From Escherichia coli (lineage in GTDB: Bacteria > Pseudomonadota > Gammaproteobacteria > Enterobacterales > Enterobacteriaceae), in NCBI RefSeq assembly GCF_044324875.1, contig NZ_CP172185.1: a DNA stretch of 64,000 nucleotides. One strand, 5' to 3'. Both the position numbers and the translations under genes were made by a program. The notes beneath the pieces were generated by a model, which was not told the DNA's origin, did no database searches, and saw nothing but the letters and a program-made list of their open reading frames with translations. Of the stretch, positions 4,345 through 58,158 are shown piece after piece (position 1 is the first letter of the stretch; each line of letters opens with the position of its first letter).

Positions 4345-5388
4345 CTACCTCCCTTTTTCCTCAAAATGTGGACACTCAATGGACATATCACATAGCGGAT
4401 TATGCATCACAGCATCGCTTAAATAATCCGGCGAAAAATGCGCATAAGTCATTGTCTGAGATATATCTGCATGACCGAGGATTTTTTGAAGAGAAATAAT
4501 ATTCCCCCCATTCATCATAAAATGGGTGGCAAATGTATGCCTCAATACATGAACCGCTTGACCGTCCGGCAAATTAGGCTTAGCCACCTTCAGTTTCAGC
4601 CTAAACCATTTATAACTCACCCGAAATAAACGCCCCTCCTTGCGATGTTTTACAAGCCTAACAACATCATCAGAAACAGGAACAACCCGACGCTTATTAT
4701 TTTTTGTGAAATTAAATACAACCTTATTACCGATAATATGTTCCCCCATTAGCTGATATGCTTCATTCCAGCGACAGCCTGTAGACAACAAAAGGACAGC
4801 CATTCGGTAATAATCTCCCGAACCCTTGCAGATAGAAAGAAACGCACCAATCTCTTCATGATTAAGATAAGCCATCTCTGGGGTTTTTTCCTTGAGGCGA
4901 GGAAGCGACAATACAGGGTTACTACCGTGATATTCACCAATCTCTGCCATAGCCTTTAACGCAGCGCTAAACGCAAAAAGATCATGGTTGATTGTAGATG
5001 CCTTAACCCCTTGATCGAGACGGCGCGATCTATATTCAGCAACCATGCGTTCATCAATCTCGTACATCATAGGGTCACCCATATCAAGACAAATACACTG
5101 GAGGTTATTCAGTCTACGATTCGCGTAATCCTTGTGACGACCTATCAGTAACCACCACGTCGCAATGAAATCGCTTAAATATCGCTTGTCCAGAAGATTA
5201 CCGAAAACATCAACAGAAGGGCGATCAGCAAGAACTTCGCGTTCAAATGCTACAGCCAGATTTTTTTTCTCAAACTTCCGACGAATGCGCCTTCCCTTAC
5301 TTCCGTCGGGTCGAATGTCCACAAAATAGCGACCATCTTCGAGCTTCTTAATTGACATAAGAAGACCCTCCAACAGTCCATTCTCCAT
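4345..5388 (-). CDS. int: Tyrosine integrase, P2 Int family
   Basis: 347 aa; N-terminus MSIKKLEDGRYFVDIRPDG...RRIRRKFEKK and C-terminal HxLRHTFATHF...GHADISQTMTYAHF catalytic region resemble P2 Int as recalled. Confidence 0.92.
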   Translation of the reverse strand: MENGLLEGLLMSIKKLEDGRYFVDIRPDGSKGRRIRRKFEKKNLAVAFEREVLADRPSVDVFGNLLDKRYLSDFIATWWLLIGRHKDYANRRLNNLQCICLDMGDPMMYEIDERMVAEYRSRRLDQGVKASTINHDLFAFSAALKAMAEIGEYHGSNPVLSLPRLKEKTPEMAYLNHEEIGAFLSICKGSGDYYRMAVLLLSTGCRWNEAYQLMGEHIIGNKVVFNFTKNNKRRVVPVSDDVVRLVKHRKEGRLFRVSYKWFRLKLKVAKPNLPDGQAVHVLRHTFATHFMMNGGNIISLQKILGHADISQTMTYAHFSPDYLSDAVMHNPLCDMSIECPHFEEKGR

Positions 5389-5427: not shown

Positions 5428-5727
5428 TTAACCAGTCTGTTTCCCTGATTGGGGTGACGTTGTTTCGACGTGCCCACAGTGTGCGAGAGCCGGGGCTATT
5501 TGCCCGTGTTCTGGGTCGATGCGGTCATACATAAACCAATTCTGATACTTATGAAAACGGGGGTGACCAAATATCTTAATTGCAGATTCCAATGTCATCT
5601 TAGATTTGTCACGCTCATAGCCGTGATAGGTTGTGTAATTAAGCCCTACTAAATCAACAAATTGCTGTTTTGTTAGCCTTTCCGAATCTCGCATGATCGC
5701 TAACTTTTCACCTTGAGTATTTGACAT
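5428..5727 (-). CDS. C: Immunity repressor, P2 C family
   Basis: 99 aa, same length as P2 C; C-terminal QIAPALAH...ETTSP...G motif resembles P2 C as recalled; divergent from the cox-like gene. Confidence 0.85.
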   Translation of the reverse strand: MSNTQGEKLAIMRDSERLTKQQFVDLVGLNYTTYHGYERDKSKMTLESAIKIFGHPRFHKYQNWFMYDRIDPEHGQIAPALAHCGHVETTSPQSGKQTG

Positions 5728-5810: not shown

Positions 5811-5851
5811 AGCAAGCCTCAATCAATGGCAACCTTGGAGTGTATCAAAAA

Positions 5852-6340
5852 ATGGCAAAACAACGAGATTTTGAACAAATCACGACACATCAGCATTGCC
5901 GTCTCTATCCATTAGACGGCTACATCACGATGAACGTGTGCAAAATGAGTTCAACGCAGGCTGGACGCATACGTGATATGAGTCTGAGCGACTTACAACA
6001 ACAGGAGTTTGTTAGCCCAGAGGAGTTTGCATACATCACGGGGCGCACCTACAAAGCAGCCAAAAACATCATGGACCGAAACGAAAGCCTGCTTATTAAG
6101 GAATACGCCACGCCAGACGCAACACGACCTAAGCGATTTATCAGACTCCAGCACTACTGGGCCGCAATTATCAACAACAAAGCATCGCTGACACCACGCG
6201 AGCATCTATTTATCAATGAGATTCGAAACAACAAAACGCTTTACCGCGAGATGATGAAAATCAATCTCAAGATTCGCGAAGGGCGAGAAGTCTCGAAAAA
6301 AAAACCAAGATACTCCCATCAATCGCAATCAGCGGCATAA
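5852..6340 (+). CDS. Cox-like excisionase/regulator domain protein (162 aa from ATG at 5852; the ORF track opens at GTG 5840)
   Basis: Position equivalent to P2 cox; central region (EFAYITGRTYKAAKNIM...LQHYW) loosely resembles the Cox winged-helix; GGAG Shine-Dalgarno 11 nt upstream of ATG 5852. Confidence 0.5.
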   Translation: MAKQRDFEQITTHQHCRLYPLDGYITMNVCKMSSTQAGRIRDMSLSDLQQQEFVSPEEFAYITGRTYKAAKNIMDRNESLLIKEYATPDATRPKRFIRLQHYWAAIINNKASLTPREHLFINEIRNNKTLYREMMKINLKIREGREVSKKKPRYSHQSQSAA

Positions 6341-7527: not shown

Positions 7528-7743
7528 ATGAGTAAACCACTAACCAGCATTGAGCGAAAAATTGTTTTTATGAATGTGGCAGGCGTGCAGTTCGAAGTGG
7601 ATAAGCAGGTCATCGTCTCCGAAACGAGATGCCCGGCAGCAGGTGAGCAATGCACCTACCTGACACTGGCAGACGGCACGCAAATAACCGCCGTCACCGA
7701 CACCATTCGCGAGCTTGTGATTATCAGAGGGGTTAAACGATGA
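7528..7743 (+). CDS. Hypothetical early-region protein (71 aa)
   Basis: ORF with AGGAG-type ribosome binding site; stop overlaps the next start (ATGA). Confidence 0.45.
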   Translation: MSKPLTSIERKIVFMNVAGVQFEVDKQVIVSETRCPAAGEQCTYLTLADGTQITAVTDTIRELVIIRGVKR

Positions 7744-7952
7744 CCAGCAAATACACCACCAACGCACGCAAGCCAGGCAAGGAGGCACGTCATCACATTG
7801 CCGTTCTGCGCAATCTCATCATGTGCGAAATCGACGACTTTGTGGCGGGACTGGGCCAGCCGGGCGAGCCAGCAACACCGGGCGAAATACACAAAGAACT
7901 ACGCCGCCGCATAGAAAGCGCGGTGGATTACGTCATGAACCCGAACGACTGA
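7740..7952 (+). CDS. Hypothetical early-region protein (70 aa)
   Basis: Translationally coupled to the preceding ORF. Confidence 0.45.
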   Translation: MTSKYTTNARKPGKEARHHIAVLRNLIMCEIDDFVAGLGQPGEPATPGEIHKELRRRIESAVDYVMNPND

Positions 7953-7992
7953 CCAGAACGCGAGCGCGCGCCGGATGACGCACGCATAACGC

Positions 7993-8478
7993 TTAGCGGG
8001 AAGCGCCAACCGTAAGGCTGGCAATGATTTTTTCGGAGAGTGAGAGAGATTCGCGATGATTAAGACCAAGAGCAGCACAAGCTTTATTGCGCGCCGGGTT
8101 GTCCATGCATTCAAGCACCGGAGAGTCCTGCTTCTCAATTTCCACCAGTCGCGCCAGCAACACCTCCGTGCTGAGACCGTCGCTTTCAGTAATCAGGACG
8201 TTATAGCGATGAGCCTGTTCTTTTGCAGCCTGAGCGCGTCGCCCAAATTTCCAGGCGATATTGCAGCCACTAAGCACAGCCACGATACCACCCAGCAACC
8301 AACTGAAATTGCTGCCTGCAAACACAGTAGCCCCAGACGTAAGGATGACAGCATTAATCACCGTATCCATACGGCGGTTAAACACCTCCGAAATATGTTC
8401 AATCCAGTAACTGTTCCAGAGACGAAACATGACCTCGTGTCGCCGTTCGGCATGATTTTCAGTTGGTTGTCTGTTCAT
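7993..8478 (-). CDS. Two-transmembrane-helix small membrane protein (161 aa), oriented against the early operon
   Basis: Two adjacent hydrophobic helices (VINAVILTSGATVFAG; FSWLLGGIVAVLSGCNIAW) followed by a charged helical tail; opposite strand to every neighbouring early gene; 243-bp upstream region of its own. Confidence 0.6.
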   Translation of the reverse strand: MNRQPTENHAERRHEVMFRLWNSYWIEHISEVFNRRMDTVINAVILTSGATVFAGSNFSWLLGGIVAVLSGCNIAWKFGRRAQAAKEQAHRYNVLITESDGLSTEVLLARLVEIEKQDSPVLECMDNPARNKACAALGLNHRESLSLSEKIIASLTVGASR

Positions 8479-8721
8479 TGCGGTTTAACCCTCCTCATCA
8501 TCTCGCCCCTGCCCTTTTTCAGGCGCGGGAGCCGGTTGCCGTGGCACATGAAATTTATCGCTATCAGACATTTATTTTTTCCCGTGTGTTGTTGAACAAA
8601 GTGCCCGCACAGTTTTGACGGAACGGCGGGCGCTTCAAGCGTAACACACCCTTCTTTTCCGGTTGAAGGCGAAAAAAACCGGACAGCTACCCGACACAAA
8701 CCAGACCAGCGGAGAACTGCC

Positions 8722-9276
8722 ATGTACGCACTTAAACCTATGGGGATACCAGGCAAAGCCCCGGCGCATGTGAAAGCCTGGACACAGCAGGAAGATGATT
8801 TGCTGATCACCCTGTACCCGCAGCACACAGCACGAGATATCGCCGGACGTCTGGGGCGCAGCTACGAAGGAGTTTGCGGCCGCATTTCTCGTCTGCGTGA
8901 ACAGGGCAGGATTGGCATCAAGCAGCAAAGACTAAGCGATGAGATGATCGCCACGCTCATCAGGAACCGCCACACCAGGTCCCTCAAGGAACTGGCACAC
9001 ATGGCGAAAGTTTCGACACGCACGGTAACCAACCGATTGAGGGCGCTGGGCTACAGCCTGATCAAATGCGGGGATCTGCATAAAAACACCGTCTACAGCG
9101 ACCGCATCGTTGAGATTATCAGACAGTTACACGACGAGGAGGGCCTGACGTTCAGGGAAATCGCACAGCGCCTTAGCCACGAACTACAGCCGAACCCTAC
9201 CCCGACACTGGCTCAACGTCTCTACTGGCGGTGCACAGCATCCGACGCCGTATTCCGTGAACTGTTACCAGATTGA
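8722..9276 (+). CDS. Putative DNA-binding protein with three tandem helix-turn-helix-like repeats (184 aa)
   Basis: Three ~40-aa segments each with a similar pattern (e.g. ...ARDIAGRLGRSYEGVCGRISRL / ...LKELAHMAKVSTRTVTNRLRALG / ...FREIAQRLSHE). Confidence 0.5.
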   Translation: MYALKPMGIPGKAPAHVKAWTQQEDDLLITLYPQHTARDIAGRLGRSYEGVCGRISRLREQGRIGIKQQRLSDEMIATLIRNRHTRSLKELAHMAKVSTRTVTNRLRALGYSLIKCGDLHKNTVYSDRIVEIIRQLHDEEGLTFREIAQRLSHELQPNPTPTLAQRLYWRCTASDAVFRELLPD

Positions 9277-9394
9277 GCAATCACCATGTACACACAAAAA
9301 AACCGCTTGCAACAACAAACCGGAACAGGGTACGCTTCCCCCGCACCTCATAAAGCGGGTGCCGGGTTTCGCAGCCTGCTGACTAGCAAAGCGC

Positions 9395-9417
9395 ACAACC
9401 GCGCCAGCGGTTTTTTT
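9395..9417 (+). terminator. Intrinsic terminator-like hairpin plus T7 within the 320-bp non-coding stretch after the 8722..9276 gene
   Basis: aaccgc-gcca-gcggtt followed by ttttttt. Confidence 0.45.
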
Positions 9418-9596
9418 GTGCGTACTGTATTGCCACGTCTTTTTCGCACACGAATTATGGCGGGGCGTACGGGGCCGACTTCGGTCGGGCCGGGTTCTTT
9501 GCTAGCCGGTACTGCGAACCTCGTACGTCTCGCCACCCACAGTTTCGCAGCTCTGGATGGTGAGTTTTTAAAACTTACTAGCAAAGAGGCCACACC

Positions 9597-9815
9597 ATGG
9601 CAAACCGCAAACAGCGCCGCGCTACTGCGGAGCATCACCACGTCCGCGCCCAAATCGACAAACGCCTTTTCCGCGCATCACGCGTTGCACGCATCATGCA
9701 CATCAACATGCTGCATGAACGCAGAGGGGCACTACCGAACACCTATATCGCCTCCGTTTTCAGCTATCTGGCGGACGATCTCGCCGAGCTGCAACGCCTC
9801 ATTAACCAGCACTGA
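9597..9815 (+). CDS. Hypothetical protein (72 aa)
   Basis: ORF preceded by an AAGAGG Shine-Dalgarno at 9584..9589. Confidence 0.45.
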   Translation: MANRKQRRATAEHHHVRAQIDKRLFRASRVARIMHINMLHERRGALPNTYIASVFSYLADDLAELQRLINQH

Positions 9816-9887
9816 TAAACATCCCGAAGCCATCCTGCGCCCGTTCGCGGGAGGCTTCCACACATCTGTAGTCGGGAGGATTGCGCC

Positions 9888-10256
9888 ATGATTCTGGCTG
9901 ACGATTTTCTGGAGTACCTGAACAACACCGAGCGCGACCTGTACGCGCGCGTTCTCACCCGTTACGAGAAATACAAACTTTCACTGCCAGAGCATCAACT
10001 CCGCGAAGGCGATATCGACATTGAAGGGCGCTACATCGTCAGGCGCCGCATAGCGGGCTACGGCATCTGGCGTGTCACCGGACGTGAGCATTCATTGCTG
10101 ACCATCTGCCAGAGTCCGTCCGGCGTGATAACGGAGATCGTCGCCGATAGTCTGCGACTCACCCATCACAGCGCCACCCCGGAAGAAACGCTGGCAGAAA
10201 CCCAGCGTCTGTGTCGCGTCATTGCCAACGCCGCCCTCCGCGCAGACAGGAGGTAA
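9888..10256 (+). CDS. Hypothetical protein (122 aa) immediately upstream of gene A
   Basis: ORF in early operon orientation, ends 4 nt before the A start. Confidence 0.5.
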   Translation: MILADDFLEYLNNTERDLYARVLTRYEKYKLSLPEHQLREGDIDIEGRYIVRRRIAGYGIWRVTGREHSLLTICQSPSGVITEIVADSLRLTHHSATPEETLAETQRLCRVIANAALRADRR

Positions 10257-10259
10257 GCG

Positions 10260-12749
10260 ATGGAGTTCGTCAGAGACTGGCAAAAACCGCGCCCCGCTAT
10301 CGGGCGCGAAGGCTTACCCGTACCTGAAACCGCACTGGATACCATCCTGAAGTGTTACCGCGCAGACGAAGAGCGCGCACTGCACGCTGAAGAGCAGGGT
10401 CATCCGCTTGCGGGCACAACCATCGGTAACGCGATCGACAAGTGGGAAGGCGCACAGGAGCGCCAGGAAGAGGCCATCACGCTCACACAGGAAGCGAGAA
10501 GACACCCGCCCACCCTTATTGAGGAAACCCTCAAAGAGCTGGACACCCTGCCCAAGTGGTTGAGGCTGCCGCTGATTAAGCACCTGAACTTTTTAAGGCG
10601 CAAACAGGAGGACGAACAGCAGAAAGGCAAGCGCGGCAAGGACACCCGCAAATATGAGCGCTTCCTGAAAAACGGCATCCCCGCACGTCTTCGCCGTATT
10701 CGTGAGATTAACGCTCGCTTTGCACCGTTAAGTTTTCAGGCCGCTGCCATGCGCGAGAGTCTGGAAGAACTGATCACACTGCCGAACCTGAGCCGTGAAC
10801 GCATCCAGAAAATAGCCGTACTGCTTGCCAGCGCCGTTAAAATGCATCTTGCCGACGCAATGGACAAGGCCCGCGAAATAACAGGGAACGACAAAGACGA
10901 CAACCTGAACAACTGGCTGATTGCCTACCAGTATATTGGTCGCCGTGTCCTGAAGCTGGGGATCACCCCACCATACTGGAGCGCCCTTGAACTCCGCCCC
11001 GACCGCAGAAGCCCCCCGGACGTGACACTGGTTCCGGGCGCTGTTTTGCGCCTGAACGACGCCGAATGGTGGAATAAAAAACTTCGCCAGATGCACGACG
11101 TCTGGCGTGAGGAACTTTTACGTGCAGCGGGCCTTGTATCCCGCCAGACCTCCGTTTATGTGAGCCGTGAAGCGCTGGCAGACTTCCGCGAAAAACAGGC
11201 CCGTACCCGCGATTTTCTCAAAGCGCACGACGTGGAGAACGAAGACGGCGAACGCATCAGTCTGGAAGATATCTACTACGCCAGTACATCCAACCCGCAT
11301 AACCGCCGCAACGAGATGATGGCGTGCGTTAAGGGAATGGAGCTTATCGCACAGGAACGCGGCGACGTGGCCTTCTTCGTCACGGTCACAGCCCCGTCTC
11401 GTTTTCACAGCGTCACCGACGCAGGCACGCTGAACCCGAAATACAAAGGCGCAACCGTAAAGGACGCCAGCGACTATCTGGTTTATAACTTCTTCGCCTC
11501 CGCCCGCAAACTCATCAAAAAAGAGAAGCGGGGCTGGTACGGCATTCGCACCGTGGAGCCTCACCACGACGGCACGCCCCACTGGCACATGCTGGTATTC
11601 ACAAGCCCTGAGAACGAAGAGCGCATCACGGAAATCATGTGCAATGCCGCCATTCGCGAAGACCGGGCAGAGCTGGGCGACGACATCACCCCGCGCTTCA
11701 AGTGCGAGAAGATAGATCCCGAAAAAGGCACGCCAACCAGCTACATCGCCACCTACATAGGCAAAGGCATTGACGCCGCTGCATTCGGCGACACGGATCC
11801 AAAAACAGGTAAACCGCCCGTTGACCACGAAAGCGGAAAACCTATGGCGGACACCGTGGAAAACGCCGTCGCCTGGGCGCGCCTGCATCGCATTCGCCAG
11901 TTCCAGTTCTTTGGCCTCCCTTCCCGTCAGGTGTGGCGTGAGTTCCGCCGCCTTGCCGGACAAATGGCACGCAACCCGAAGGGGCCGCAGGCACTGACCA
12001 ACCCCAAAGCCGACGCCCTCCTTGTTGCAGCCGATACGGGGTGTTTTGCCAGCTACATCATGCATCAGGGCGGTGTGCTCATTCCCCGTAGTGAATATCT
12101 GGCCCGCACAGCCTACGTCACCGCAGAAGAGCCGAACAATTACAGCGAATTCCCCGAGCGCATTTACGGTATCCGCATGCCGGAACTGGGGGAGGACTTC
12201 ACGTTATGCACCCACCCGGAAGAGTGGAAAATCGTCAGAAAGGAACCGGAACCAGACAACCGCACGGGCGAGGGTTTTGACCTTCAGGGCGGCCCCGCCG
12301 CCCCTTGGACTCGTGGCAATAACTGTCACCCTGACGAAAAAACAACCAACAACAGCACACAAACCGGACAGTCAGAGTGGGCAAAACTGCCCCCCTTACC
12401 CCCATCGTCGGACGGTTTTGTGAGCTGGTTTAAGTCGCTTAAGAGGCCGGACAGGAAAAAACTACAAAGATTGCTCAAAAAACGCACCGAAGAGAGTCGC
12501 CAGAACGCCAGCGGCGGCACCGACACACCCACCGACACCATTAACCTGGGCGTTGTGCTGCCGGAACTGCCGGAAATCGTGCAAGTCCGCCGCGATCTGG
12601 AAGCGCTGGGCGCGGACTTCCCCGAAGCAATGGCCCATTCCGTCTTTATGGGTGCCCGCGTTCGTCTGGGTAACGGTCGCACCGTTCACCGCGACGAGCA
12701 GACCGGGCGCATCACCGTCACCAGTCTGCAACCGGAGGCGAAACCATGA
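10260..12749 (+). CDS. A: Replication initiation protein, P2 gene A family (rolling-circle endonuclease)
   Basis: 829 aa; contains an HUH-type metal-binding motif (HDGTPHWHMLVF) and a downstream tyrosine motif (SYIATYIGKG), as in rolling-circle initiators; position as for P2 A. Confidence 0.85.
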   Translation: MEFVRDWQKPRPAIGREGLPVPETALDTILKCYRADEERALHAEEQGHPLAGTTIGNAIDKWEGAQERQEEAITLTQEARRHPPTLIEETLKELDTLPKWLRLPLIKHLNFLRRKQEDEQQKGKRGKDTRKYERFLKNGIPARLRRIREINARFAPLSFQAAAMRESLEELITLPNLSRERIQKIAVLLASAVKMHLADAMDKAREITGNDKDDNLNNWLIAYQYIGRRVLKLGITPPYWSALELRPDRRSPPDVTLVPGAVLRLNDAEWWNKKLRQMHDVWREELLRAAGLVSRQTSVYVSREALADFREKQARTRDFLKAHDVENEDGERISLEDIYYASTSNPHNRRNEMMACVKGMELIAQERGDVAFFVTVTAPSRFHSVTDAGTLNPKYKGATVKDASDYLVYNFFASARKLIKKEKRGWYGIRTVEPHHDGTPHWHMLVFTSPENEERITEIMCNAAIREDRAELGDDITPRFKCEKIDPEKGTPTSYIATYIGKGIDAAAFGDTDPKTGKPPVDHESGKPMADTVENAVAWARLHRIRQFQFFGLPSRQVWREFRRLAGQMARNPKGPQALTNPKADALLVAADTGCFASYIMHQGGVLIPRSEYLARTAYVTAEEPNNYSEFPERIYGIRMPELGEDFTLCTHPEEWKIVRKEPEPDNRTGEGFDLQGGPAAPWTRGNNCHPDEKTTNNSTQTGQSEWAKLPPLPPSSDGFVSWFKSLKRPDRKKLQRLLKKRTEESRQNASGGTDTPTDTINLGVVLPELPEIVQVRRDLEALGADFPEAMAHSVFMGARVRLGNGRTVHRDEQTGRITVTSLQPEAKP

Positions 12750-13292: not shown

Positions 13293-13667
13293 ATGAATAA
13301 ACAGGATTTTGGACTTGATACCCTTTTGAGTATGCATGGTTACCAGCATCACATGGATAACGGGTACTGGTGGAAAATTGAGGCTTACCGGGTAAGTCCA
13401 AGTCCGTTCAGACCTCACGGGATACGCTACAATCTGACGTTACATGACCGCTACAATTCGCGTGTGTTTGGTATGGACAACGCACATGGAATAAAACCGC
13501 CAAAGAAGGGAAGATTTACAGGAAAGTTAACTGTTTATGATCATGTGCACCGTACCCCGGTGGATAAAGGTTATCCCTATGAGTTTGTATCCGCAGAACA
13601 ATTGTTATCTGATTTCTTTGATAACGTTGATCGGCTCATTAACGAAGTTACAAAGGGGAAAGCATGA
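13293..13667 (+). CDS. Hypothetical small protein (124 aa), first gene of an overlapping two-gene module in the A-to-Q cargo region
   Basis: ORF with own upstream promoter-like region (direct repeats atgatttgtt / atgatttatt); stop overlaps the next start (ATGA). H/Y/W-rich; no motif I can assign with confidence. Confidence 0.6.
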   Translation: MNKQDFGLDTLLSMHGYQHHMDNGYWWKIEAYRVSPSPFRPHGIRYNLTLHDRYNSRVFGMDNAHGIKPPKKGRFTGKLTVYDHVHRTPVDKGYPYEFVSAEQLLSDFFDNVDRLINEVTKGKA

Positions 13668-14050
13668 AAGCCCGCATCGGGATCATCCCGGAAAAAGTCC
13701 TGCGTCAGCGCCTGATTGAAATTGCCAAGGGGGAGCGGAAACCACACCCCGACGAGCCAAGGGTATGGTTTTCATCCATCAATGCGGCGGGTCAGGCGCT
13801 GAGCAATGAAAATATCTCCCTTCTTCGTCTTATGGATGAGGAGAAACCGCAGACCATGACCGAACTTGCGGAGTTATCCGGCAGAAAACTGAGTAACCTG
13901 TCTGTAACCCTGAAAATGCTGAGCAGCTACGGTTTTGTCAGTCTGGAAAAGAAAGGAAATACCGTACACCCGAAGGCACTTTTTACCGATTTTGAAATCA
14001 TCGTTGATCCGTCCGTCGGTTCAGTACATCGCGCCACCGCCCGCCCCTGA
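13664..14050 (+). CDS. Putative winged-helix DNA-binding protein (128 aa), second gene of the two-gene module
   Basis: Central MarR/winged-helix-like segment (MTELAELSGRKLSNLSVTLKMLSSYGFVSLEKKG); translationally coupled to 13293..13667. Confidence 0.6.
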   Translation: MKARIGIIPEKVLRQRLIEIAKGERKPHPDEPRVWFSSINAAGQALSNENISLLRLMDEEKPQTMTELAELSGRKLSNLSVTLKMLSSYGFVSLEKKGNTVHPKALFTDFEIIVDPSVGSVHRATARP

Positions 14051-14063
14051 AGTGTGCAATAAA

Positions 14064-14090
14064 CAGCCCCGGTCGGGGCTGTTTTTTATT
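14064..14090. terminator. Bidirectional intrinsic terminator between the converging 13664..14050 and 14086..14460 genes
   Basis: cagcccc-ggtc-ggggctg hairpin followed by ttttttatt. Confidence 0.6.
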
Positions 14091-14460
14091 CCAGAATCAG
14101 CTGTTCAGGTGTGCAGCCGTACAGTCTGGCAAGGCGCTCAATATTTGCCCTGCGCGGGCGTTCTGTTCTTTCGAATTCGGACACGGTAGCCTGCCTGATA
14201 CCCAGCGCATCCGCCACCTGCTTTTGCGTCATTCCGCGATAGATTCGCCACGCCGCCTGCATGGTGCAGCCACGTTCCGAGAGGATGTTGACCACCTCGT
14301 TGGGATACAGCGTATCAGGCGATGCACTCGGTTCGTTCTGGACGTCCTCGTAGAGTTCGTCAAGGTCGCTGTCTCCTGCCAGTTTTTCAAACAACGCCAC
14401 TGGCAGAATGACGGATACCCTGTTACCCGCACCGTCAGTAATAAACTGAATCTGACTCAT
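14086..14460 (-). CDS. XRE-family helix-turn-helix protein (124 aa), candidate antitoxin
   Basis: C-terminal HTH_XRE-like segment (MTQKQVADALGIRQATVSEFERTERPRRANIERLARLYG); downstream of and co-oriented with a RelE/ParE-like ORF. Confidence 0.6.
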   Translation of the reverse strand: MSQIQFITDGAGNRVSVILPVALFEKLAGDSDLDELYEDVQNEPSASPDTLYPNEVVNILSERGCTMQAAWRIYRGMTQKQVADALGIRQATVSEFERTERPRRANIERLARLYGCTPEQLILE

Positions 14461-14533
14461 TTGCCCCTCCTGCTAAACATCGGTTTATTTTTTAATTTGC
14501 TGCCGGTGATAAAAAACGGCGGGTCGCCCCGCC

Positions 14534-14806
14534 TTAGTATGTTGTCGAGGTTCTCCGCTGAATACGGAGGATCCTGATAACCACTATCTGCCCTCCCTCA
14601 ATCGTGAACCTGACACGGTAATGATTTACCCTGAGTCTGTACTCCCCGCCCGAGTCAGTGAGCTTTTTAATATCCAGATTCTGGAACTTCGGATAGCCAT
14701 AAAGCGCGTTAACTTTCTCGCGTAAGGATTTCTGATCCCTCGCTGGCAAAACCCGTAAATCTTTGATTGCCCGAGGGGTCCACATGATTTCAGTCGTCAT
14801 AAACAC
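14534..14806 (-). CDS. RelE/ParE-superfamily toxin-like protein (about 88-90 aa; start GTG 14806 or ATG 14800)
   Basis: N-terminal ...WTPRAIKDLRVL... and C-terminal YRLRVNHYRVRF...IVVIRI segments resemble RelE/ParE/HigB-type toxins. Confidence 0.6.
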   Translation of the reverse strand: MFMTTEIMWTPRAIKDLRVLPARDQKSLREKVNALYGYPKFQNLDIKKLTDSGGEYRLRVNHYRVRFTIEGGQIVVIRILRIQRRTSTTY

Positions 14807-34445: not shown

Positions 34446-34494
34446 GAATAAAACCTCAAATCAGGGGCGACGCCACGCGCCGCCGTGGAAAACA

Positions 34495-35013
34495 TTAACC
34501 ACCAAGACCAATCGCCGAGCGCACGCGGTCCGGGAAGACGCTTTTGCCGTCCTTGCGTTCGATGTGGTTCAGTAAATCAATCTCCAGCACCGGACGGTCG
34601 TTAATGCTGAGTTTGTAGTAGGTACTTTTGACCGCATAGGTGTGAGACGTGACCTCACCCTGTTTGGCCTCCCCGGTATCAATTTCCGTCACGCGACCGC
34701 GAAGCTCAATCTCGTACAGGTCACTCTGTTCTTCATCGTTGTAGTACTCACCGACAAAGCGCAGCAGCGTACCGTCAATCGTGCCGCCGTACTTGAGGAA
34801 CAGTTCGCGGGTCGGCCCGCCCATGGTGAAACTCGCATCCAGCGCGCCGTCATCCAGGCCAAGGTCGATATTTACTGCACCGGCCATACCACCACCGCGA
34901 TAGGCTTCCGTTTTACGGGTCAGTTTGGGGGGCGTGAAGCCGGTCACCCTGCCAATCTGGTTCACCCCGTCAGTAAACAGCGTGAACACCCTGAGATTTT
35001 TTGGTACGGCCAT
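34495..35013 (-). CDS. FII: Tail tube protein, P2 gpFII family
   Basis: 172 aa between the sheath and E genes. Confidence 0.8.
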   Translation of the reverse strand: MAVPKNLRVFTLFTDGVNQIGRVTGFTPPKLTRKTEAYRGGGMAGAVNIDLGLDDGALDASFTMGGPTRELFLKYGGTIDGTLLRFVGEYYNDEEQSDLYEIELRGRVTEIDTGEAKQGEVTSHTYAVKSTYYKLSINDRPVLEIDLLNHIERKDGKSVFPDRVRSAIGLGG

Positions 35014-36296
35014 TAAGCACCTCCAAGCGTCGCAAATGCAGGACCAAAGAATTCATCAGTAAACGTCTGGTAAAGTTCCATATCCTCAAGCGGCGGAACG
35101 GGCGTGTACTTGTAGCGGATACGCACGCGTCCCTGACGAAGTTCCGTGGTGCTGTTATCCACCACGTCATACCAGCACTCCGCACCAACGAGACGTCCTG
35201 ACGTAACCAGCGCATCCAGTTTTGCGCGAATTGCGCTTAACACGTCTTTCACATTAGCAGGGGTCAGCGGGGCATCAATCGTTTCAAACTGCGCTTCCGC
35301 AACAGAATCAGCCAGCACCTGAGCGGTTCGCGTGTACACCTCAAAGATATACGCCTTCGTTTCCGGCGTACGGTTGCCCCAGAAGCGGAAACCGTTACGG
35401 CGAATGATGGTGGTGATTTCCTTGTTGTTGAGATTGTTGGCATCGCTGTCTTCGGACTGAAGGGACCAGAACACCCGGCTGGAAATACCCAGCACATTTC
35501 TTACCGGCACGTTGGACAGCGATTTATGCCAGCCCTGTTCGTGGTCAATACGTGCACGTAAACCGCAGGCGTACGCCGCAGCCGGGAAGACCTCATTAGC
35601 GCCGGATTTCGGGTTATAGGCGATGAAGTCAGGCCAGAGCAGCATAAGTTCGCGCTCGTTAAATCTGGCGCGGTAGCTGATTGCATCAGCGGGCTTCTTG
35701 CAGTTGTGACAGCCCGCGTAGACAAATGCGCGAAGTTTTTCTGCAATTACACACAGGGATTTTGTGACAGCTTCAGTATCCAGTCCGGGAGCTGCGATGA
35801 TGCGCGGACGGTAACCGATGGCATCATCCTGTTCAGCTATCAGAAGTGCATACATACCGGTATAATTACCGTCGCCATCCGTGCCACCAATGACATACTG
35901 GTCCTGCGTTTTGTGTGGGTATACAGGATGTGCATCTTCAGACTCATCAATACCAAAAAATGCCCTGTCTTCAGGATCCAGATGACCGAATGATGTAACT
36001 CCTGTATCCGGGGCGCCCTGAGAACTGGCATCAGGAACGCGCACCACAATCACCTTCGTGCTCACCTGGTCGGCGACAGCCTTAAGCGATTTGTAAAGCG
36101 TCCCCTTTGTGCCGGCCTTACCCAGCACATCACTGACGCGGGTCAGCAGTGTGGGTTTGTTCAGCGGGAACAGAGTTTCATCCGCGTCATCTGCCGTAGC
36201 CACAATACCAATAACACTGGAATCCACATCATTAATGGCGGTGGCAAGGCCGGTACTTTCCCTTACGCGCGCACCATGAAAGCGTGTTTCACTCAT
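35013..36296 (-). CDS. FI: Tail sheath protein, P2 gpFI family (427 aa from ATG 36296)
   Basis: Motifs collinear with P2 FI as recalled (LNKP, KGTLY, EQGWHK, GFRFWGNRT, NYTRTAQV, YTPVPPLE); the ORF track start at 36443 is an over-extension. Confidence 0.88.
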   Translation of the reverse strand: MSETRFHGARVRESTGLATAINDVDSSVIGIVATADDADETLFPLNKPTLLTRVSDVLGKAGTKGTLYKSLKAVADQVSTKVIVVRVPDASSQGAPDTGVTSFGHLDPEDRAFFGIDESEDAHPVYPHKTQDQYVIGGTDGDGNYTGMYALLIAEQDDAIGYRPRIIAAPGLDTEAVTKSLCVIAEKLRAFVYAGCHNCKKPADAISYRARFNERELMLLWPDFIAYNPKSGANEVFPAAAYACGLRARIDHEQGWHKSLSNVPVRNVLGISSRVFWSLQSEDSDANNLNNKEITTIIRRNGFRFWGNRTPETKAYIFEVYTRTAQVLADSVAEAQFETIDAPLTPANVKDVLSAIRAKLDALVTSGRLVGAECWYDVVDNSTTELRQGRVRIRYKYTPVPPLEDMELYQTFTDEFFGPAFATLGGA

Positions 36297-42273: not shown

Positions 42274-43068
42274 ATGGATCTGTTGTACCGGGTAAAAACG
42301 CTTTGGGCCGCGCTGCGCGGTAATCATTACACCTGGCCTGCTATCGATATCTCTCTTCCCGGCAATCGCCATTTTCATCTGATTGGCAGTATTCATATGG
42401 GTAGCCACGATATGGCTCCCCTGCCCACCCGTTTGCTCAAAAAGCTCAAAAACGCCGATGCGCTGATCGTCGAGGCGGATGTTTCCACCAGCGATACGCC
42501 TTTTGCTAATTTGCCTGCCTGCGAGGCGCTGGAAGAGCGCATTAGCGAGGAGCAACTCCAAAATCTGCAGCACATTAGCCAGGAGATGGGCATTTCTACC
42601 TCACTCTTTTCTACCCAACCGCTGTGGCAAATCGCGATGGTTCTTCAGGCGACGCAGGCACAAAAACTGGGGCTGCGGGCAGAATACGGTATCGATTACC
42701 AGCTATTGCAGGCGGCGAAGCAACAACATAAACCCGTGATTGAACTGGAAGGGGCTGAAAACCAGATTGCCATGTTGCTCCAGCTCCCTGACAAAGGACT
42801 GGCGCTGCTGGACGATACGCTGACCCACTGGCACACCAATGCACGGTTGCTGCAACAAATGATGAGCTGGTGGCTGAATGCGCCGCCGCAAAATAATGAA
42901 ATAACGCTGCGTAATACGTTCAGTCAATCGCTGTACGATGTGCTGATGCATCAGCGAAATCTCGCCTGGCGGGACAAATTATGCGCCATGCCGCCGGGGC
43001 GCTATGTGGTCGCAGTCGGTGCACTACACCTGTATGGAGAAGGGAATTTGCCGCAGATGTTGCGCTAA
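42274..43068 (+). CDS. ybaP: TraB-family protein YbaP
   Basis: 264 aa, synteny between copA and ybaK. Confidence 0.85.
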   Translation: MDLLYRVKTLWAALRGNHYTWPAIDISLPGNRHFHLIGSIHMGSHDMAPLPTRLLKKLKNADALIVEADVSTSDTPFANLPACEALEERISEEQLQNLQHISQEMGISTSLFSTQPLWQIAMVLQATQAQKLGLRAEYGIDYQLLQAAKQQHKPVIELEGAENQIAMLLQLPDKGLALLDDTLTHWHTNARLLQQMMSWWLNAPPQNNEITLRNTFSQSLYDVLMHQRNLAWRDKLCAMPPGRYVVAVGALHLYGEGNLPQMLR

Positions 43069-43256
43069 AAAAATGGCCAATATCGCTATTGGCCCGTCAA
43101 AGAGGAATTTCATATTTTTATTATTATGCCGTCACTTTAAGCGACGGTGTAACTCGATTGTCGCTCAATCTCACCATCCTGCCAATACTCTTAGGCAAGA
43201 TGACTCTTTTTTTTGGACCGCCATCAGGCGTATGCTTGCTTCGTTTTTTTGTTTAA

Positions 43257-48826: not shown

Positions 48827-48910
48827 GTAGGCATGATAAGACGCGCCAGCGTCGCATCAGGCATTGAGAGCAAAATGCCAGATGCGGCGTGAACGCCTTA
48901 TCTGGCCTAC
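48827..48910. repeat. BIME / REP elements (two inverted REP units)
   Basis: gtaggcatgataagacgcgccagcgtcgcatcaggc and gccagatgcggcgtgaacgccttatctggcctac match REP consensus types. Confidence 0.8.
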
Positions 48911-56226: not shown

Positions 56227-58158
56227 TCAAATGGGGCGGATACTTTCTTCATCCAGCTCCGCATCGAAGAATCGACGCAGGGTCTGAATATTATTATCCG
56301 CAATAATGGACTCGCGCGCCTGCGCAAGTTTTTCTTCGTATATCGCCTGACGCCATTCCAGCGGCGTACGCACCGCGGGATTATCATCTTCAACGATAGT
56401 CAGTTCAACCGTTGAACCTTTTAACGTGCTCAACGCTTCAGCCAGTTTTTGCTGTGCGCCGCGGTTGTTCAAATGCCGCTGAGAGGAGCGCAAATGCAGA
56501 CATACTGCGTTGTCGCTCTCCTCTTTCCAGGCATTTAACGCCACCTGTTCGACCAGTTTTGGTAGCGAAAGTTGACTCACCTGAGCCGCCCACGGGTCGC
56601 GCTCAATGGCTTCTGCCGCCAGCTTCGCCGCCAGTTCCGGCGTTTTTTCATGTTCCAGCGCTTTTTTTAGCGCCTTCGGCGTGGCGACCACTTCTTTTTG
56701 CTGCATCACTGGAGTGGTAGCCTTCCAGCGATACGCTTCTTTTTTGGCTGGCGCTTTTTCCAGCGCCGATGGCACCGGACGCGCCTGAACGCGATCGGTG
56801 ACCGAAGCCAGTCTTTCCAGCGCAGCGTTATTCACCGGCCGCGCGCGGGTAGCGGCTGCCGGTTCACTCTTTTTTGCTTTGGTTGCTCCCTGCACGCGCT
56901 GCAACTGCTGGCGCGCCGCCAGCACCTGGCTGGTGGTTTCCGGGAGCGGTACAGTCGGTGCCTGCTGCGGCGCTGATTGCGGTTGTGGCGGCACCTGGGT
57001 TGGCGTCATTACTGCCGTTGGCGCAACGAGCGCAAAGGACTGGCGTGGCACTTCTGGCTCAGGCAGAGGCATACGCGGATGGAACGCCAGCGCGCGCAGC
57101 AGCGTCATCTCAACACCCATACGGCGGTCTGGCGCATACGGTAATTCTTTGCGACCAATCAACAGCGTCTGATAGTAAAGCTGAATATCCGTCGGCGGTA
57201 TGGTGCGCGCCAGTTCACGCATCCGCAGCTCAATGGCGGCCATGTCGTTGCCAAGAGCAGCAGGCGAAAGTTGTACCATCGCAATACGATGCAACAGACC
57301 GAGCATTTCCACCAGCAACGCTTCCCACTCGATACCACGGGCAGCAGCTTCATTAATTAGCGCCATTACGCGCTCGCCGTTGGCCTCGACCATCGCTTCA
57401 ACCAGCGATAACGCCTGATCGTCGTCAAGCGTACCCAGCATCGCACTGACCGCCTGGGTTGAAACCTGGCCGTCACCGCTGGCAATCGCCTGGTCGGTCA
57501 GACTTAAGGCATCTCGCAGGCTGCCTTCAGCGGCGCGTGCCAACAATTGCAGCGCCCGCGGCTCGTGAGCGATATGTTCTTCGTTGAGGATGTGCTCAAG
57601 CTGATGGCGAATTTGCTCGACATCCAGCGCCTTGAGATGAAATTGCAGACAGCGTGACAAAATCGTCACCGGCAATTTCTGCGGATCGGTCGTCGCCAGC
57701 AAAAACTTAACGTGCTCTGGCGGCTCTTCAAGGGTTTTTAACAGTGCGTTAAAGCTGTGACGCGACAGCATATGCACTTCGTCGATGAGATAAACTTTGA
57801 AACGACCACGCGCCGGAGCGTACTGGACGTTATCCAGCAGGTCGCGAGTGTCTTCAACTTTAGTGCGCGAGGCGGCGTCGATTTCAATCAGATCGACAAA
57901 GCGCCCCTGCTCGATTTCACGACAATTATCGCACACGCCGCACGGCGTCGCGGTAATGCCGGTTTCGCAGTTTAGCCCCTTCGCCAGCAGTCGGGCGATA
58001 GAGGTTTTTCCGACGCCACGGGTACCGGAAAAAAGATAAGCATGATGAATACGCCCTAACGACAAGCCGTTCGCCAGTGCGGTCAGCACATGTTCCTGGC
58101 CGACGACGTCAGCAAAGGTTTGTGGGCGCCATTTTCGGGCTAAGACCTGATAACTCAT
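56227..58158 (-). CDS. dnaX: DNA polymerase III tau subunit (gamma produced by frameshifting)
   Basis: 643 aa with AAA+ motifs; contains the A AAA AAG slippery site. Confidence 0.97.
   Translation of the reverse strand: MSYQVLARKWRPQTFADVVGQEHVLTALANGLSLGRIHHAYLFSGTRGVGKTSIARLLAKGLNCETGITATPCGVCDNCREIEQGRFVDLIEIDAASRTKVEDTRDLLDNVQYAPARGRFKVYLIDEVHMLSRHSFNALLKTLEEPPEHVKFLLATTDPQKLPVTILSRCLQFHLKALDVEQIRHQLEHILNEEHIAHEPRALQLLARAAEGSLRDALSLTDQAIASGDGQVSTQAVSAMLGTLDDDQALSLVEAMVEANGERVMALINEAAARGIEWEALLVEMLGLLHRIAMVQLSPAALGNDMAAIELRMRELARTIPPTDIQLYYQTLLIGRKELPYAPDRRMGVEMTLLRALAFHPRMPLPEPEVPRQSFALVAPTAVMTPTQVPPQPQSAPQQAPTVPLPETTSQVLAARQQLQRVQGATKAKKSEPAAATRARPVNNAALERLASVTDRVQARPVPSALEKAPAKKEAYRWKATTPVMQQKEVVATPKALKKALEHEKTPELAAKLAAEAIERDPWAAQVSQLSLPKLVEQVALNAWKEESDNAVCLHLRSSQRHLNNRGAQQKLAEALSTLKGSTVELTIVEDDNPAVRTPLEWRQAIYEEKLAQARESIIADNNIQTLRRFFDAELDEESIRPI
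56869..56875 (-). promoter_or_regulatory. dnaX programmed -1 frameshift heptamer A AAA AAG (tau/gamma)
   Basis: Plus-strand ctttttt at 56869..56875 = minus aaaaaag within ...GCA AAA AAG AGU GAA..., encoding the ...AKKSE... region of tau. Confidence 0.85.

What the first reader, a model, noticed from the sequence alone, without database searches (positions are those of the whole stretch)
7953..8721. Oppositely oriented two-TM membrane protein gene inserted in the early operon
Every other gene from cox-like to A is on the plus strand. This 161-aa gene is on the minus strand with a 243-bp upstream region of its own, the signature of an independently expressed moron. The two-helix membrane hairpin plus charged tail resembles small membrane effectors used in superinfection exclusion or abortive infection (it loosely recalls the SLATT-type 2TM fold, unverified).
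Basis: inference. Interest (0 to 1): 0.55.

Follow-up and report, generated by a model that had tools for sequence, protein, structure and literature searches.

The report
Two-gene membrane-protein cassette in prophage
A P2-like prophage carries an optional 770-base insert, transcribed against its early genes, that encodes a tiny proline-rich peptide and a SLATT-like two-helix membrane protein; it is probably an uncharacterised anti-phage or exclusion module, which makes it a good experimental lead rather than a surprise.

Summary
ORF 7993-8478 (-) is a real 161-aa gene, and codon-position statistics show the minus strand is the coding one. It is the only reverse gene between cox and A.

The "243-bp upstream region" is not empty. 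It holds an unannotated, conserved 28-aa ORF (8485-8571, -) that ends 6 nt before the 161-aa gene. It also holds an invariant extended -10 motif (TGnTAnnnT, 8638-8646), a covarying leader hairpin and an upstream terminator-like hairpin.

A related E. coli prophage has the two flanking genes 24 bp apart, so window ~7960-8729 is a discrete cassette. It occurs in 33 of 5426 complete E. coli genomes.

The same peptide-plus-2TM pair lies antisense in the early operons of other P2-like phages and of lambdoid phages, the position lambda sieB occupies. A distant homolog lies between a Type ISP restriction enzyme and a Lamassu LmuB.

The protein is an N-in/C-in helical hairpin. Foldseek matches SLATT-named proteins, and NCBIfam SLATT_4 hits are consistent but below threshold. 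There is no Pfam, PADLOC or PDB match.

Best reading: a lysogen-expressed SLATT-like abortive-infection or exclusion effector, silenced by antisense early transcription during the phage's own lytic growth. The function is inferred, not shown.

The parts
7960..8729 (-). Whole cassette: a segment present here but absent from a related P2-like prophage whose two flanking genes are 24 bp apart.
   Evidence: blastn: window 7740-7959 matches L029 5001-5220 and window 8730-8827 matches L029 5245-5342. A second homologous cassette in a different flank context matches window 8021-8683 only.
7993..8478 (-). 161-aa SLATT-like two-TM protein gene (PHROG 6315). It is predicted N-in/C-in, with a long cytoplasmic helical stalk and three short C-terminal helices.
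   Evidence: The family has 208 representatives at 50% identity.
8485..8571 (-). Unannotated 28-aa ORF, MSDSDKFHVPRQPAPAPEKGQGRDDEEG. Its stop lies 6 nt before the 161-aa gene's ATG, and its last codons (GAT GAG GAG G) form that gene's Shine-Dalgarno.
   Evidence: Orthologous small ORFs with a proline-rich core (F-H-V-P-R-x-P-x-P in the closest relatives) occur in L002, L003, L004, L005, L007-L011, L018, L019, L020, L021 and L031. The ORF is under purifying selection: 7 synonymous and 0 non-synonymous changes against L002, 9 and 3 against L007, and variable columns by codon position of 5/8/16. It matches no PHROG and is not annotated in RefSeq.
8599..8635 (-). Leader stem-loop at the predicted 5' end of the transcript (arms AAGCGCCCGC / GCGGGCACTT).
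   Evidence: RNAalifold on 13 loci predicts 6 pairs, 5 of them with compensatory double changes. The position is read.
8638..8646 (-). Extended -10 promoter-like element, TGT TACGCT (pattern TGnTAnnnT), about 75 nt upstream of the small ORF.
   Evidence: The pattern is found at -70 to -77 in 12 of the 13 loci with enough upstream sequence. Its background frequency is 6e-4 per nt. T1, G2, T4, A5 and T9 account for five of the six invariant columns of the 13-sequence alignment; the sixth, C18, lies in the leader stem. The stricter -35/-10 scan found nothing on this strand here.
8667..8695 (-). GC hairpin plus T-run (terminator-like) on the cassette's own strand, upstream of its promoter.
   Evidence: stem 8695-8678, tail TTTTTTTCGCC. 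A homologous GCCGGG..CCCGGC hairpin precedes the promoter in other loci. In L018 a second copy follows the 2TM gene and precedes another cargo gene.

Best explanation
Window ~7960-8729 is an accessory two-gene cassette (a moron) inserted antisense into the early lytic operon of a P2-like prophage.

Shown or directly read from sequence:
- It has its own extended -10 promoter-like element.
- It has a 5' leader hairpin.
- It has a 28-aa proline-rich acidic peptide gene.
- Six nucleotides after that gene's stop, sharing the Shine-Dalgarno, it has a 161-aa membrane protein gene.
- The membrane protein is a helical hairpin with both ends in the cytoplasm and is a remote relative of SLATT effectors.

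Inferred:
- In the lysogen the early promoter is repressed, so the cassette is transcribed unopposed and the 2TM protein sits in the inner membrane.
- On infection by another phage the protein oligomerises or opens, collapses membrane integrity or potential, and aborts the infection. This is the kind of role known for lambda/P22 SieB and proposed for SLATT effectors.
- The small peptide is a co-made regulator that sets the level or the gating of the 2TM protein. It could act as an inhibitor or partner, or as a coupling leader ORF.
- When the prophage itself is induced, the early transcript has to read through the whole cassette in antisense to reach the HTH gene and gene A. Convergent transcription and antisense RNA then shut the cassette off and spare the phage's own lytic cycle.
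For: - Real genes on the minus strand.
- Discrete indel against an empty site.
- Rare in E. coli (33 of 5426 genomes).
- Conserved TGnTAnnnT motif and covarying leader hairpin.
- No operator shared with the C/cox switch and no LexA box, so the promoter looks independent of the repressor.
- Orientation: in every P2-like locus examined the gene lies between C/cox and gpA and is co-oriented with C/int, that is, antisense to the early operon, although its position within the operon varies.
- The same peptide-plus-2TM pair lies antisense in early-left operons of lambdoid phages. Lambda sieB occupies the equivalent position.
- SieB is prophage-expressed and stops macromolecular synthesis of superinfecting phages but not of P22 itself (PMC10461980).
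- A distant homolog (A1 profile E 2.6e-7) lies between a Type ISP restriction enzyme and a LmuB-like ATPase.
- SLATT-like fold and topology. Recurrent sub-threshold SLATT_4 hits.
- SLATT proteins are predicted pore-forming effectors of defence systems (10.64898/2026.04.29.721553).
Against: - There is no experimental datum, and no expression data for lysogens.
- No PADLOC model matches, and no Pfam SLATT model matches.
- No sensor or nucleotide-generating partner is nearby, so the trigger is unknown.
- The TM segments are only moderately hydrophobic (Kyte-Doolittle 17-residue maximum about 1.6-1.7).
- The promoter is a motif match only. The standard -35/-10 scan found none on this strand.
- No clear intrinsic terminator follows the gene.
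- In the commonest E. coli variant (24 of 33 genomes) the small ORF is frameshifted and interrupted while the 2TM ORF stays open, so the peptide is dispensable at least there.
- One short contig shows a homolog co-oriented with a tail gene, not antisense.
- The AF2 peptide-linker-2TM fusion gave pLDDT above 50 only for peptide residues 11-18 (block mean 58) and below 50 for the rest of the peptide, so a physical complex is unproven.
Confidence: 0.5

Rival explanations
1. Entry-blocking superinfection exclusion. The small inner-membrane protein interferes with DNA ejection or translocation by incoming phages, as T4 Imm or P22 SieA do, without killing the cell.
For: It is an inner-membrane hairpin protein with a prophage-type promoter. 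Prophage-encoded inner-membrane exclusion proteins are well known (PMC10461980).
Against: The periplasmic loop is only about 3 residues. Conservation across the wide family lies in the cytoplasmic parts: Y92, A129, G157, the stretch after TM2 and the C-terminal helices. That leaves little surface to meet an incoming ejection apparatus. The fold neighbours are SLATT-type effectors.
Confidence: 0.15
2. Addiction (toxin-antitoxin-like) module. The 2TM protein is a membrane toxin and the labile small peptide is its antidote, which stabilises the prophage.
For: There is a small upstream ORF tightly coupled to a larger downstream gene, and the pair is conserved across distant homologs. SLATT proteins are predicted toxins.
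Against: A lineage present in 24 complete E. coli genomes has lost the peptide ORF but keeps an open 2TM gene and its promoter motif. An integrated prophage with its own repressor and integrase has little need for plasmid-style addiction. AF2 gives no confident docking.
Confidence: 0.12
3. A function in the phage's own life cycle. Either the antisense promoter acts as a brake on read-through of the early operon into the replication genes, stabilising lysogeny by transcriptional interference, or the membrane protein modulates the phage's own induction or lysis.
For: The antisense orientation is invariant in P2-like and lambdoid early operons. The early transcript must cross the cassette to reach the HTH gene and gene A, because in the empty-site phage those genes are contiguous.
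Against: The cassette is absent from most P2-like prophages of E. coli and from close relatives. It moves between unrelated phage backbones and also occurs in a chromosomal defence island. Both ORFs are under protein-level purifying selection, which interference alone would not need.
Confidence: 0.1

Closest known systems
SLATT superfamily (SMODS- and SLOG-associating 2TM effectors; closest model NCBIfam NF033632 SLATT_4; includes DUF4231)
   Same: It is a two-TM helical hairpin with cytoplasmic N- and C-terminal helices, about 150-170 aa long. SLATT_4 is the recurrent HMM hit, in the same register over the hairpin. Many Foldseek neighbours with TM-score 0.75-0.87 are named SLATT or DUF4231.
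   Different: Scores reach 12-24 bits against a curated cut-off of 55, and no Pfam SLATT model matches. There is no linked CD-NTase/SMODS, SLOG, TIR or reverse-transcriptase gene. Instead the constant partner is a 27-53-aa proline-rich peptide gene.
Lambda/P22 SieB (superinfection exclusion B, an abortive-infection membrane protein)
   Same: It is a gene of about 160-190 codons with N-terminal hydrophobic segments and a soluble C-terminal part. It is placed antisense inside an early lytic operon; lambda sieB (34482-35036, +) lies between ral/orf28 and N, which are both on the - strand. In lambdoid phages the cassette studied here occupies the equivalent region. SieB is prophage-expressed and spares its own phage. 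From my own knowledge, and from the title of Ranade and Poteete 1993 cited there, self-immunity in P22 involves an antisense RNA derived from the early transcript.
   Different: There is no detectable homology (hhalign probability 0.2%), and no Pfam SieB hit. SieB has no upstream peptide gene; its modulator Esc is an in-frame internal product.
P2 lysogenic-conversion and defence genes (old, tin, fun/Z) and the P2 defence hotspot next to cos (Rousset et al. 2022, PMC9122126)
   Same: It is accessory cargo of P2-like prophages that is plausibly directed against other phages.
   Different: The location is different. It sits inside the early operon between cox and A, not in the hotspot next to cos. 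It matches no PADLOC model, and PADLOC-DB v2.0.0 dates from 2023, after that 2022 paper.
Small membrane toxins with a co-encoded partner (toxin-antitoxin-like pairs)
   Same: It is a compact bicistronic unit with a tiny upstream ORF coupled to a membrane protein gene.
   Different: The peptide is lost in a common natural variant whose 2TM gene stays intact. No known antitoxin family matches.

Membership tests
SLATT superfamily | Two transmembrane helices forming a hairpin, with N- and C-termini on the cytoplasmic side and flanking cytoplasmic helices. | tested here: met
   Hydropathy shows segments at about 38-56 and 60-78 with a 3-residue turn, and basic residues (NRR, KFGRR) on both cytoplasmic flanks. 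AF2 predicts helices 7-53 and 59-101 at pLDDT 81; the fusion model gives 88-93 over the same part.
SLATT superfamily | A match to a curated SLATT profile at or above its threshold (NCBIfam NF033632/NF033634; Pfam SLATT_1-6, SLATT_fungal, DUF4231). | tested here: not met
   The query scores 12.2 bits (E 0.12) on SLATT_4 against a cut-off of 55. Of 30 relatives tested, 12 score 14.8-24.4 bits and none passes. For Pfam, 0 of 80 members reach E<=0.001 for any SLATT model.
SLATT superfamily | Fold-level similarity to proteins annotated as SLATT. | tested here: met
   Foldseek against AFDB50 gives 69 hits at E<=0.001. Many of the top 50 are named SLATT or DUF4231, at TM-score 0.72-0.87 and down to 18-25% identity. 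Caveat: some of these are members of this same family that were named automatically. No solved structure matches.
SLATT superfamily | Genomic linkage to a signal-generating or sensing partner (SMODS/CD-NTase, SLOG, TIR, reverse transcriptase). | tested here: not met
   None is present in the window or in about 25 homologous loci. The constant neighbour is the small peptide ORF.
SLATT superfamily | Membrane permeabilisation or cell-suicide activity. | not testable with these tools
   This needs expression, membrane-potential and viability assays.
SieB (lambda/P22) | Sequence or profile homology to SieB. | tested here: not met
   hhalign of the 80-sequence family profile against lambda SieB gives probability 0.2% and E 0.25. 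There is no Pfam SieB hit.
SieB (lambda/P22) | A gene placed antisense within an early lytic operon. | tested here: met
   Lambda sieB is on the + strand between ral/orf28 and N, both on the - strand. The cassette is antisense to the early operon in all P2-like loci examined and in lambdoid loci. Whether either gene has its own promoter was not read from these records; for the cassette a promoter-like motif is conserved.
Moron (independently transcribed accessory gene of a prophage) | Present or absent between otherwise syntenic related phages. | tested here: met
   Empty site in E. coli JNEC-KY172: the flanking genes are 24 bp apart there and 770 bp apart here. The cassette is in 33 of 5426 complete E. 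coli genomes.
Moron (independently transcribed accessory gene of a prophage) | Its own promoter and terminator. | tested here: inconclusive
   The extended -10 motif is invariant across loci, but there is no mapping of the transcription start. A terminator-like hairpin lies upstream, not downstream. Downstream hairpins lack T-runs.
Moron (independently transcribed accessory gene of a prophage) | Expression from the repressed prophage. | not testable with these tools
   This needs RNA-seq or 5' RACE on a lysogen. The only supporting observation is that no operator is shared with the C/cox switch and there is no LexA box.
Toxin-antitoxin pair | The antitoxin gene is retained wherever the toxin gene is intact. 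| tested here: not met
   In the variant found in 24 complete E. coli genomes the small ORF has lost its start by a frameshift and carries a premature TAG, while the 160-aa 2TM ORF and the promoter motif are intact.
Known defence systems in PADLOC-DB v2 | A profile match to any component. | tested here: not met
   0 families at E<=1 for the 161-aa protein.

The most novel reading that the evidence does not exclude
The 28-aa proline-rich peptide and the SLATT-like protein together form a minimal, self-contained abortive-infection system. The peptide would be the gate or sensor of the pore: titrated, degraded or no longer made on infection. The phage's own early transcript, running antisense across both genes, would provide self-immunity, as the sas/Esc arrangement does for P22 sieB. 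This would be the simplest known setting in which SLATT gating could be dissected, with no nucleotide signal or reverse transcriptase involved.
Probability: 0.2. Interest if true: 0.7.

Novelty: new variant of a known kind. Interest (0 to 1): 0.5.

Why it matters
SLATT-type 2TM proteins are the presumed killing effectors of several defence systems, including CBASS-like systems, DRT3 and DRT10. How they are activated is still described as a central open question (10.64898/2026.04.29.721553). A stand-alone SLATT-like protein whose only constant partner is a 27-53-residue peptide, carried on a 0.77-kb cassette, would be a very small and tractable model.

The finding also shows three further things:
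- P2-like prophages carry cargo inside the early operon, outside the published hotspot next to cos.
- A conserved small gene is missing from RefSeq and PHROG annotation.
- The antisense-in-early-operon arrangement of lambda sieB recurs with an unrelated protein in two phage families, which suggests a general way of making a prophage weapon safe for its owner.

Tried and rejected
- Pfam on the protein and on 80 relatives found nothing meaningful. The best hit was ATP-synt_I at E 0.012, a TM-region artefact.
- PADLOC found nothing for the 161-aa protein.
- PDB searches by sequence profile and by Foldseek found nothing.
- megablast of the region against phage genomes found no match.
- The search for related loci with the broad alignment A2 failed for lack of a conserved stretch. 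I used A1 instead.
- A second word-indexed protein search with A2 added almost nothing and no Pfam-annotated relatives.
- hhalign against lambda SieB showed no homology.
- The small peptides have no PHROG family.
- The AF2 model of a peptide-(GGGGS)6-2TM fusion with a paired alignment gave pLDDT above 50 only for peptide residues 11-18 (block mean 58) and below 50 elsewhere. No coordinates were available to inspect contacts, so this was inconclusive.
- I searched for an operator shared with the C/cox switch region and for a LexA box and found none.
- Rfam at permissive E-values over 7900-8800 found nothing.
- The global fold of the predicted 5' part of the mRNA was no better than shuffles (z 0.10), so there is no evidence that structure masks the 2TM gene's ribosome-binding site.
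- I rejected the idea that the + strand ORF 8056-8595 is the real gene, although it is annotated as CDS vBYenM4218_008 in Yersinia phage vB_YenM_42.18. Its substitution pattern is 8 synonymous to 69 non-synonymous changes.
- I rejected stop-codon read-through fusing the two ORFs. The spacer is in frame in the close relatives, but it is 0, 4, 5, 8 or 22 nt in others.

Full report
**1. The observation**

The window carries a complete P2-like prophage.
- Integrase is at 4345-5388 (-), a C-type repressor at 5428-5727 (-), a cox-like gene at 5840-6340 (+) and the replication endonuclease gpA at 10260-12749 (+). The late genes follow.
- The prophage lies between glsA and copA in near-identical E. 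coli genomes.
- ORF 7993-8478 (-) encodes 161 aa. In the RefSeq annotation of a 98-100% identical prophage it is the only minus-strand CDS between cox and gpA.

Both strands are open here, because a 179-aa ORF at 8056-8595 runs on the + strand. Annotators of Yersinia phage vB_YenM_42.18 called that antisense ORF as a CDS. I therefore tested which strand is selected, using an 80%-identical homolog.
- In the minus frame, differences by codon position are 30/21/68, with 49 synonymous and 41 non-synonymous codon changes.
- In the plus frame there are 8 synonymous and 69 non-synonymous changes.

The minus-strand gene is the real one. AT skew also flips locally.

**2. A second gene in the "upstream region"**

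The 243 bp upstream are not empty. Six nucleotides before the ATG of the 161-aa gene, a 28-codon ORF ends on the same strand (8485-8571, -). It reads MSDSDKFHVPRQPAPAPEKGQGRDDEEG, and its last codons (GAT GAG GAG G) are the Shine-Dalgarno of the downstream gene.

Orthologous small ORFs precede every reasonably complete homolog I could inspect.
- They are 27-53 aa long.
- They share a proline-rich core. In the closest relatives it reads F-H-V-P-R-x-P-x-P.
- P2-type versions have an acidic tail and lambdoid versions a basic one.
- They include proteins only 23-40% identical to the query.

The small ORF is under protein-level selection.
- Over 19 alignable codons there are 7 synonymous and 0 non-synonymous changes against L002, and 9 and 3 against L007.
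- Variable columns by codon position are 5/8/16.

The ORF is not annotated in RefSeq and has no PHROG family. The unit is therefore a bicistron.

**3. Its own regulatory region**

Upstream of the small ORF, 13 diverse loci share one architecture.
- First comes a GC hairpin. In the window it is followed by a T7 run (8667-8695, -), which the scan flagged as terminator-like.
- Next comes a nonamer, TGnTAnnnT. Its five specified positions account for five of the six invariant columns of the alignment, while the inner hexamer bases vary (TACGCT, TATTTT, TAATTT, TATATT, TACAAT and others). That is the signature of an extended -10 promoter. In the window it is at 8638-8646.
- Then comes a leader stem-loop in which 5 of 6 predicted pairs show compensatory double changes. 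In the window it spans 8599-8635.
- Last comes an AAGGAG-type ribosome-binding site.

I found no operator shared with the C/cox switch and no LexA box, no Rfam family and no significant global mRNA structure. The stricter -35/-10 scan found no promoter on this strand, so the promoter is a conserved-motif inference, not a mapped start.

In locus L018 a second copy of the hairpin-promoter module follows the 2TM gene and precedes another co-oriented cargo gene, phrog_9021. The module therefore looks portable.

**4. It is a discrete, optional cassette**

In E. coli JNEC-KY172 the homologs of the two flanking genes are 24 bp apart. These are the 70-aa gene at 7740-7952 and the 184-aa Myb/SANT-like HTH gene at 8722-9276. 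Window 7740-7959 aligns to L029 5001-5220, and window 8730-8827 aligns to L029 5245-5342.

A second E. coli prophage shares only window 8021-8683, at 80% identity, between different neighbours.

The cassette is found in 33 of 5426 complete E. coli genomes. Its GC content is slightly below that of its flanks. It is accessory cargo, not a core P2 early gene.

**5. Where else it occurs**

- **P2-like loci.** I examined E. coli, Yersinia phage vB_YenM_42.18, 13 IMG/VR contigs, and metagenome and genome contigs. In all of them the gene lies between C/cox and gpA. It is always co-oriented with C and int, that is, antisense to the early lytic operon. Its position varies: directly after cox in L007-L009 and further along elsewhere.
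- **Lambdoid phages.** The same peptide-plus-2TM pair also sits antisense in the early-left (exo/bet-type) operon. Examples are a genome contig (L020), metagenome contigs and the isolated Providencia phage PSTNGR2lys, where the small ORF is annotated and a perfect TATAAT precedes it.
- **A defence island.** A distant homolog (E 2.6e-7 with the close-family profile) lies between a 1669-aa Type ISP restriction-modification enzyme and a gene pair whose second member is a Lamassu LmuB-type ATPase (PADLOC E 1.7e-37).
- **An exception.** One short contig has a homolog co-oriented with a tail gene.

**6. The protein**

- **Topology.** Hydropathy gives two moderately hydrophobic segments rich in Gly, Ser and Thr (about 38-56 and 60-78). 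They are joined by a three-residue turn, with basic residues on both cytoplasmic flanks.
- **Model.** AF2 reaches mean pLDDT 81 (88-93 over this part in a second run). It predicts one long helical hairpin (7-53 and 59-101) whose cytoplasmic halves form a stalk, plus three short C-terminal helices.
- **Family.** An exhaustive profile search finds 208 representatives at 50% identity, nearly all stand-alone proteins of 150-170 aa. Across 80 of them, the conserved positions lie in the cytoplasmic parts: YSYxLE before TM1, PGxxAxxAxxQxxxY after TM2, DS, AxxRAxIxLG and the C-terminal GG-P.
- **Library matches.** PHROG 6315 (function unknown) matches at 1e-49. Pfam, PADLOC and PDB give nothing.
- **SLATT evidence.** NCBIfam SLATT_4 is the recurrent hit, in the same register, in the query and in 12 of 30 relatives tested. 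Scores are only 12-24 bits against a cut-off of 55. Foldseek against AFDB50 returns 69 hits at E<=0.001, many named SLATT or DUF4231, with TM-scores of 0.72-0.87.

I conclude that the protein is a remote, separately evolving branch of the SLATT-like 2TM fold. It is not a member of any curated SLATT family, and it lacks the nucleotide-signalling or reverse-transcriptase partners that define the classical SLATT systems.

**7. How it most likely works**

Shown: there is a bicistronic accessory cassette with its own conserved promoter-like element. It encodes a small peptide and an N-in/C-in helical-hairpin membrane protein, and it is placed antisense to early lytic operons in two phage families.

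Inferred:
- Expression occurs in the lysogen, when the early promoter is repressed and nothing collides with the cassette's transcription.
- The protein acts as a membrane-perturbing abortive-infection or exclusion effector against other phages.
- The cassette is silenced by convergent transcription or antisense RNA when the prophage's own early transcript reads through. It must read through, because in the empty-site phage the flanking genes are contiguous.

The closest functional precedent is sieB.
- Lambda sieB lies antisense between ral/orf28 and N.
- SieB is prophage-expressed and stops macromolecular synthesis of superinfecting relatives but not of P22 itself (PMC10461980).
[quoted passage not shown] From my own knowledge, the paper describes an antisense RNA from the early transcript that gives P22 its self-immunity.
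- There is no sequence relationship between SieB and this family, so the resemblance is one of arrangement.

The role of the small peptide is open.
- Tight coupling and family-wide conservation argue for a functional partner or regulator.
- However, in the variant carried by 24 of the 33 E. coli genomes the peptide ORF is frameshifted and interrupted, while the 2TM ORF and promoter motif survive. This argues against an obligatory antitoxin.
- An AF2 fusion model did not give confident docking.

**8. Rivals**

- **Entry-blocking exclusion.** This is less likely given the 3-residue periplasmic loop and the cytoplasmic conservation.
- **Addiction module.** The natural variant that has lost the peptide weakens this.
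- **Life-cycle or transcriptional-interference role.** The patchy distribution, the transfer between backbones, the defence-island homolog and the protein-level selection all weaken this.

**9. Novelty and verdict**

I found no description of this cassette.
- Rousset et al. 2022 place the P2 defence hotspot next to cos, not in the early operon (PMC9122126).
- Literature searches on SLATT or DUF4231 with prophage or phage, and on P2-like early-operon morons, returned nothing specific.

It is best filed as a new variant of a known kind: a SLATT-like membrane effector carried as a prophage moron, with a new constant partner (a micro-peptide) and a sieB-like antisense placement. Interest is moderate. 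It is a clean, small and testable candidate defence or exclusion module, and a possible minimal model for SLATT gating. Its function is entirely inferred, and prophage-encoded membrane exclusion proteins are not in themselves surprising.

Noticed in passing
window 9343-9417 (+) and 9453-9540 (+): Rfam finds an IsrK Hfq-binding RNA (64.7 bits) and a C4 antisense RNA (82.8 bits, P1/P7 immI type) side by side. They lie in the gap between the HTH gene (8722-9276) and the 72-aa 'derepression protein' ORF (9597-9815), just upstream of gpA. The 201-aa ORF 9286-9891 (+) that covers them is therefore spurious. A promoter-like site at 9430-9458 (+) precedes C4. This looks like a second, RNA-based immunity or anti-repressor module inside the P2-like early operon.
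   Followed up: partly
window 8056-8595 (+); L003 5812-6477 (-): The antisense frame of the 2TM gene stays open in all homologs inspected. It was annotated as a 221-aa CDS (vBYenM4218_008) in Yersinia phage vB_YenM_42.18, while the true gene on the other strand is unannotated there. Substitution patterns show the antisense ORF is not selected.
   Followed up: yes
window 13293-14806: The region between gpA and the portal gene, which is the classical P2 cargo hotspot, holds two more small modules. One is a DUF6516 plus HVO_A0114-family DNA-binding pair (13293-13667 and 13664-14050, +). The other is an HTH plus RelE-family toxin pair (14086-14460 and 14534-14806, -). Annotation is taken from the near-identical RefSeq prophage.
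   Followed up: no
L018 8563-9171: The hairpin, TGnTAnnnT and leader-hairpin module found upstream of the cassette is duplicated immediately after the 2TM gene. There it precedes a different co-oriented 164-aa gene (phrog_9021, function unknown). The module may be a portable terminator-promoter unit for prophage cargo.
   Followed up: partly
L026 6940-7023: In the defence-island homolog, the C-terminal tail of the 1669-aa Type ISP enzyme reads MHMPAYPIPQPEQDRGDQSGSQTKK and overlaps the start of the 2TM gene. It resembles the small-peptide motif (HVPRQPAPAPEKGQGRD). The small ORF may lie in frame with, or have been merged into, the upstream gene call.
   Followed up: no
L030 3090-3216 and L012 7750-7970: In the commonest E. 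coli variant of the cassette the small ORF is recognisably decayed. The KFHEPGYPA motif is now out of frame with the ATG and is followed by a TAG. In L012 the 2TM protein also differs at otherwise conserved positions (NPAR to NVTY; L030 has NVAY). This may be coupled decay or co-evolution of the two genes.
   Followed up: partly
window 43067-43150 (-), 48830-48907 (-), 56830-56894 (-): Host chromosome features lie to the right of the prophage: sroB sRNA, naRNA4 and the dnaX frameshift element. They are ordinary E. coli features.
   Followed up: no
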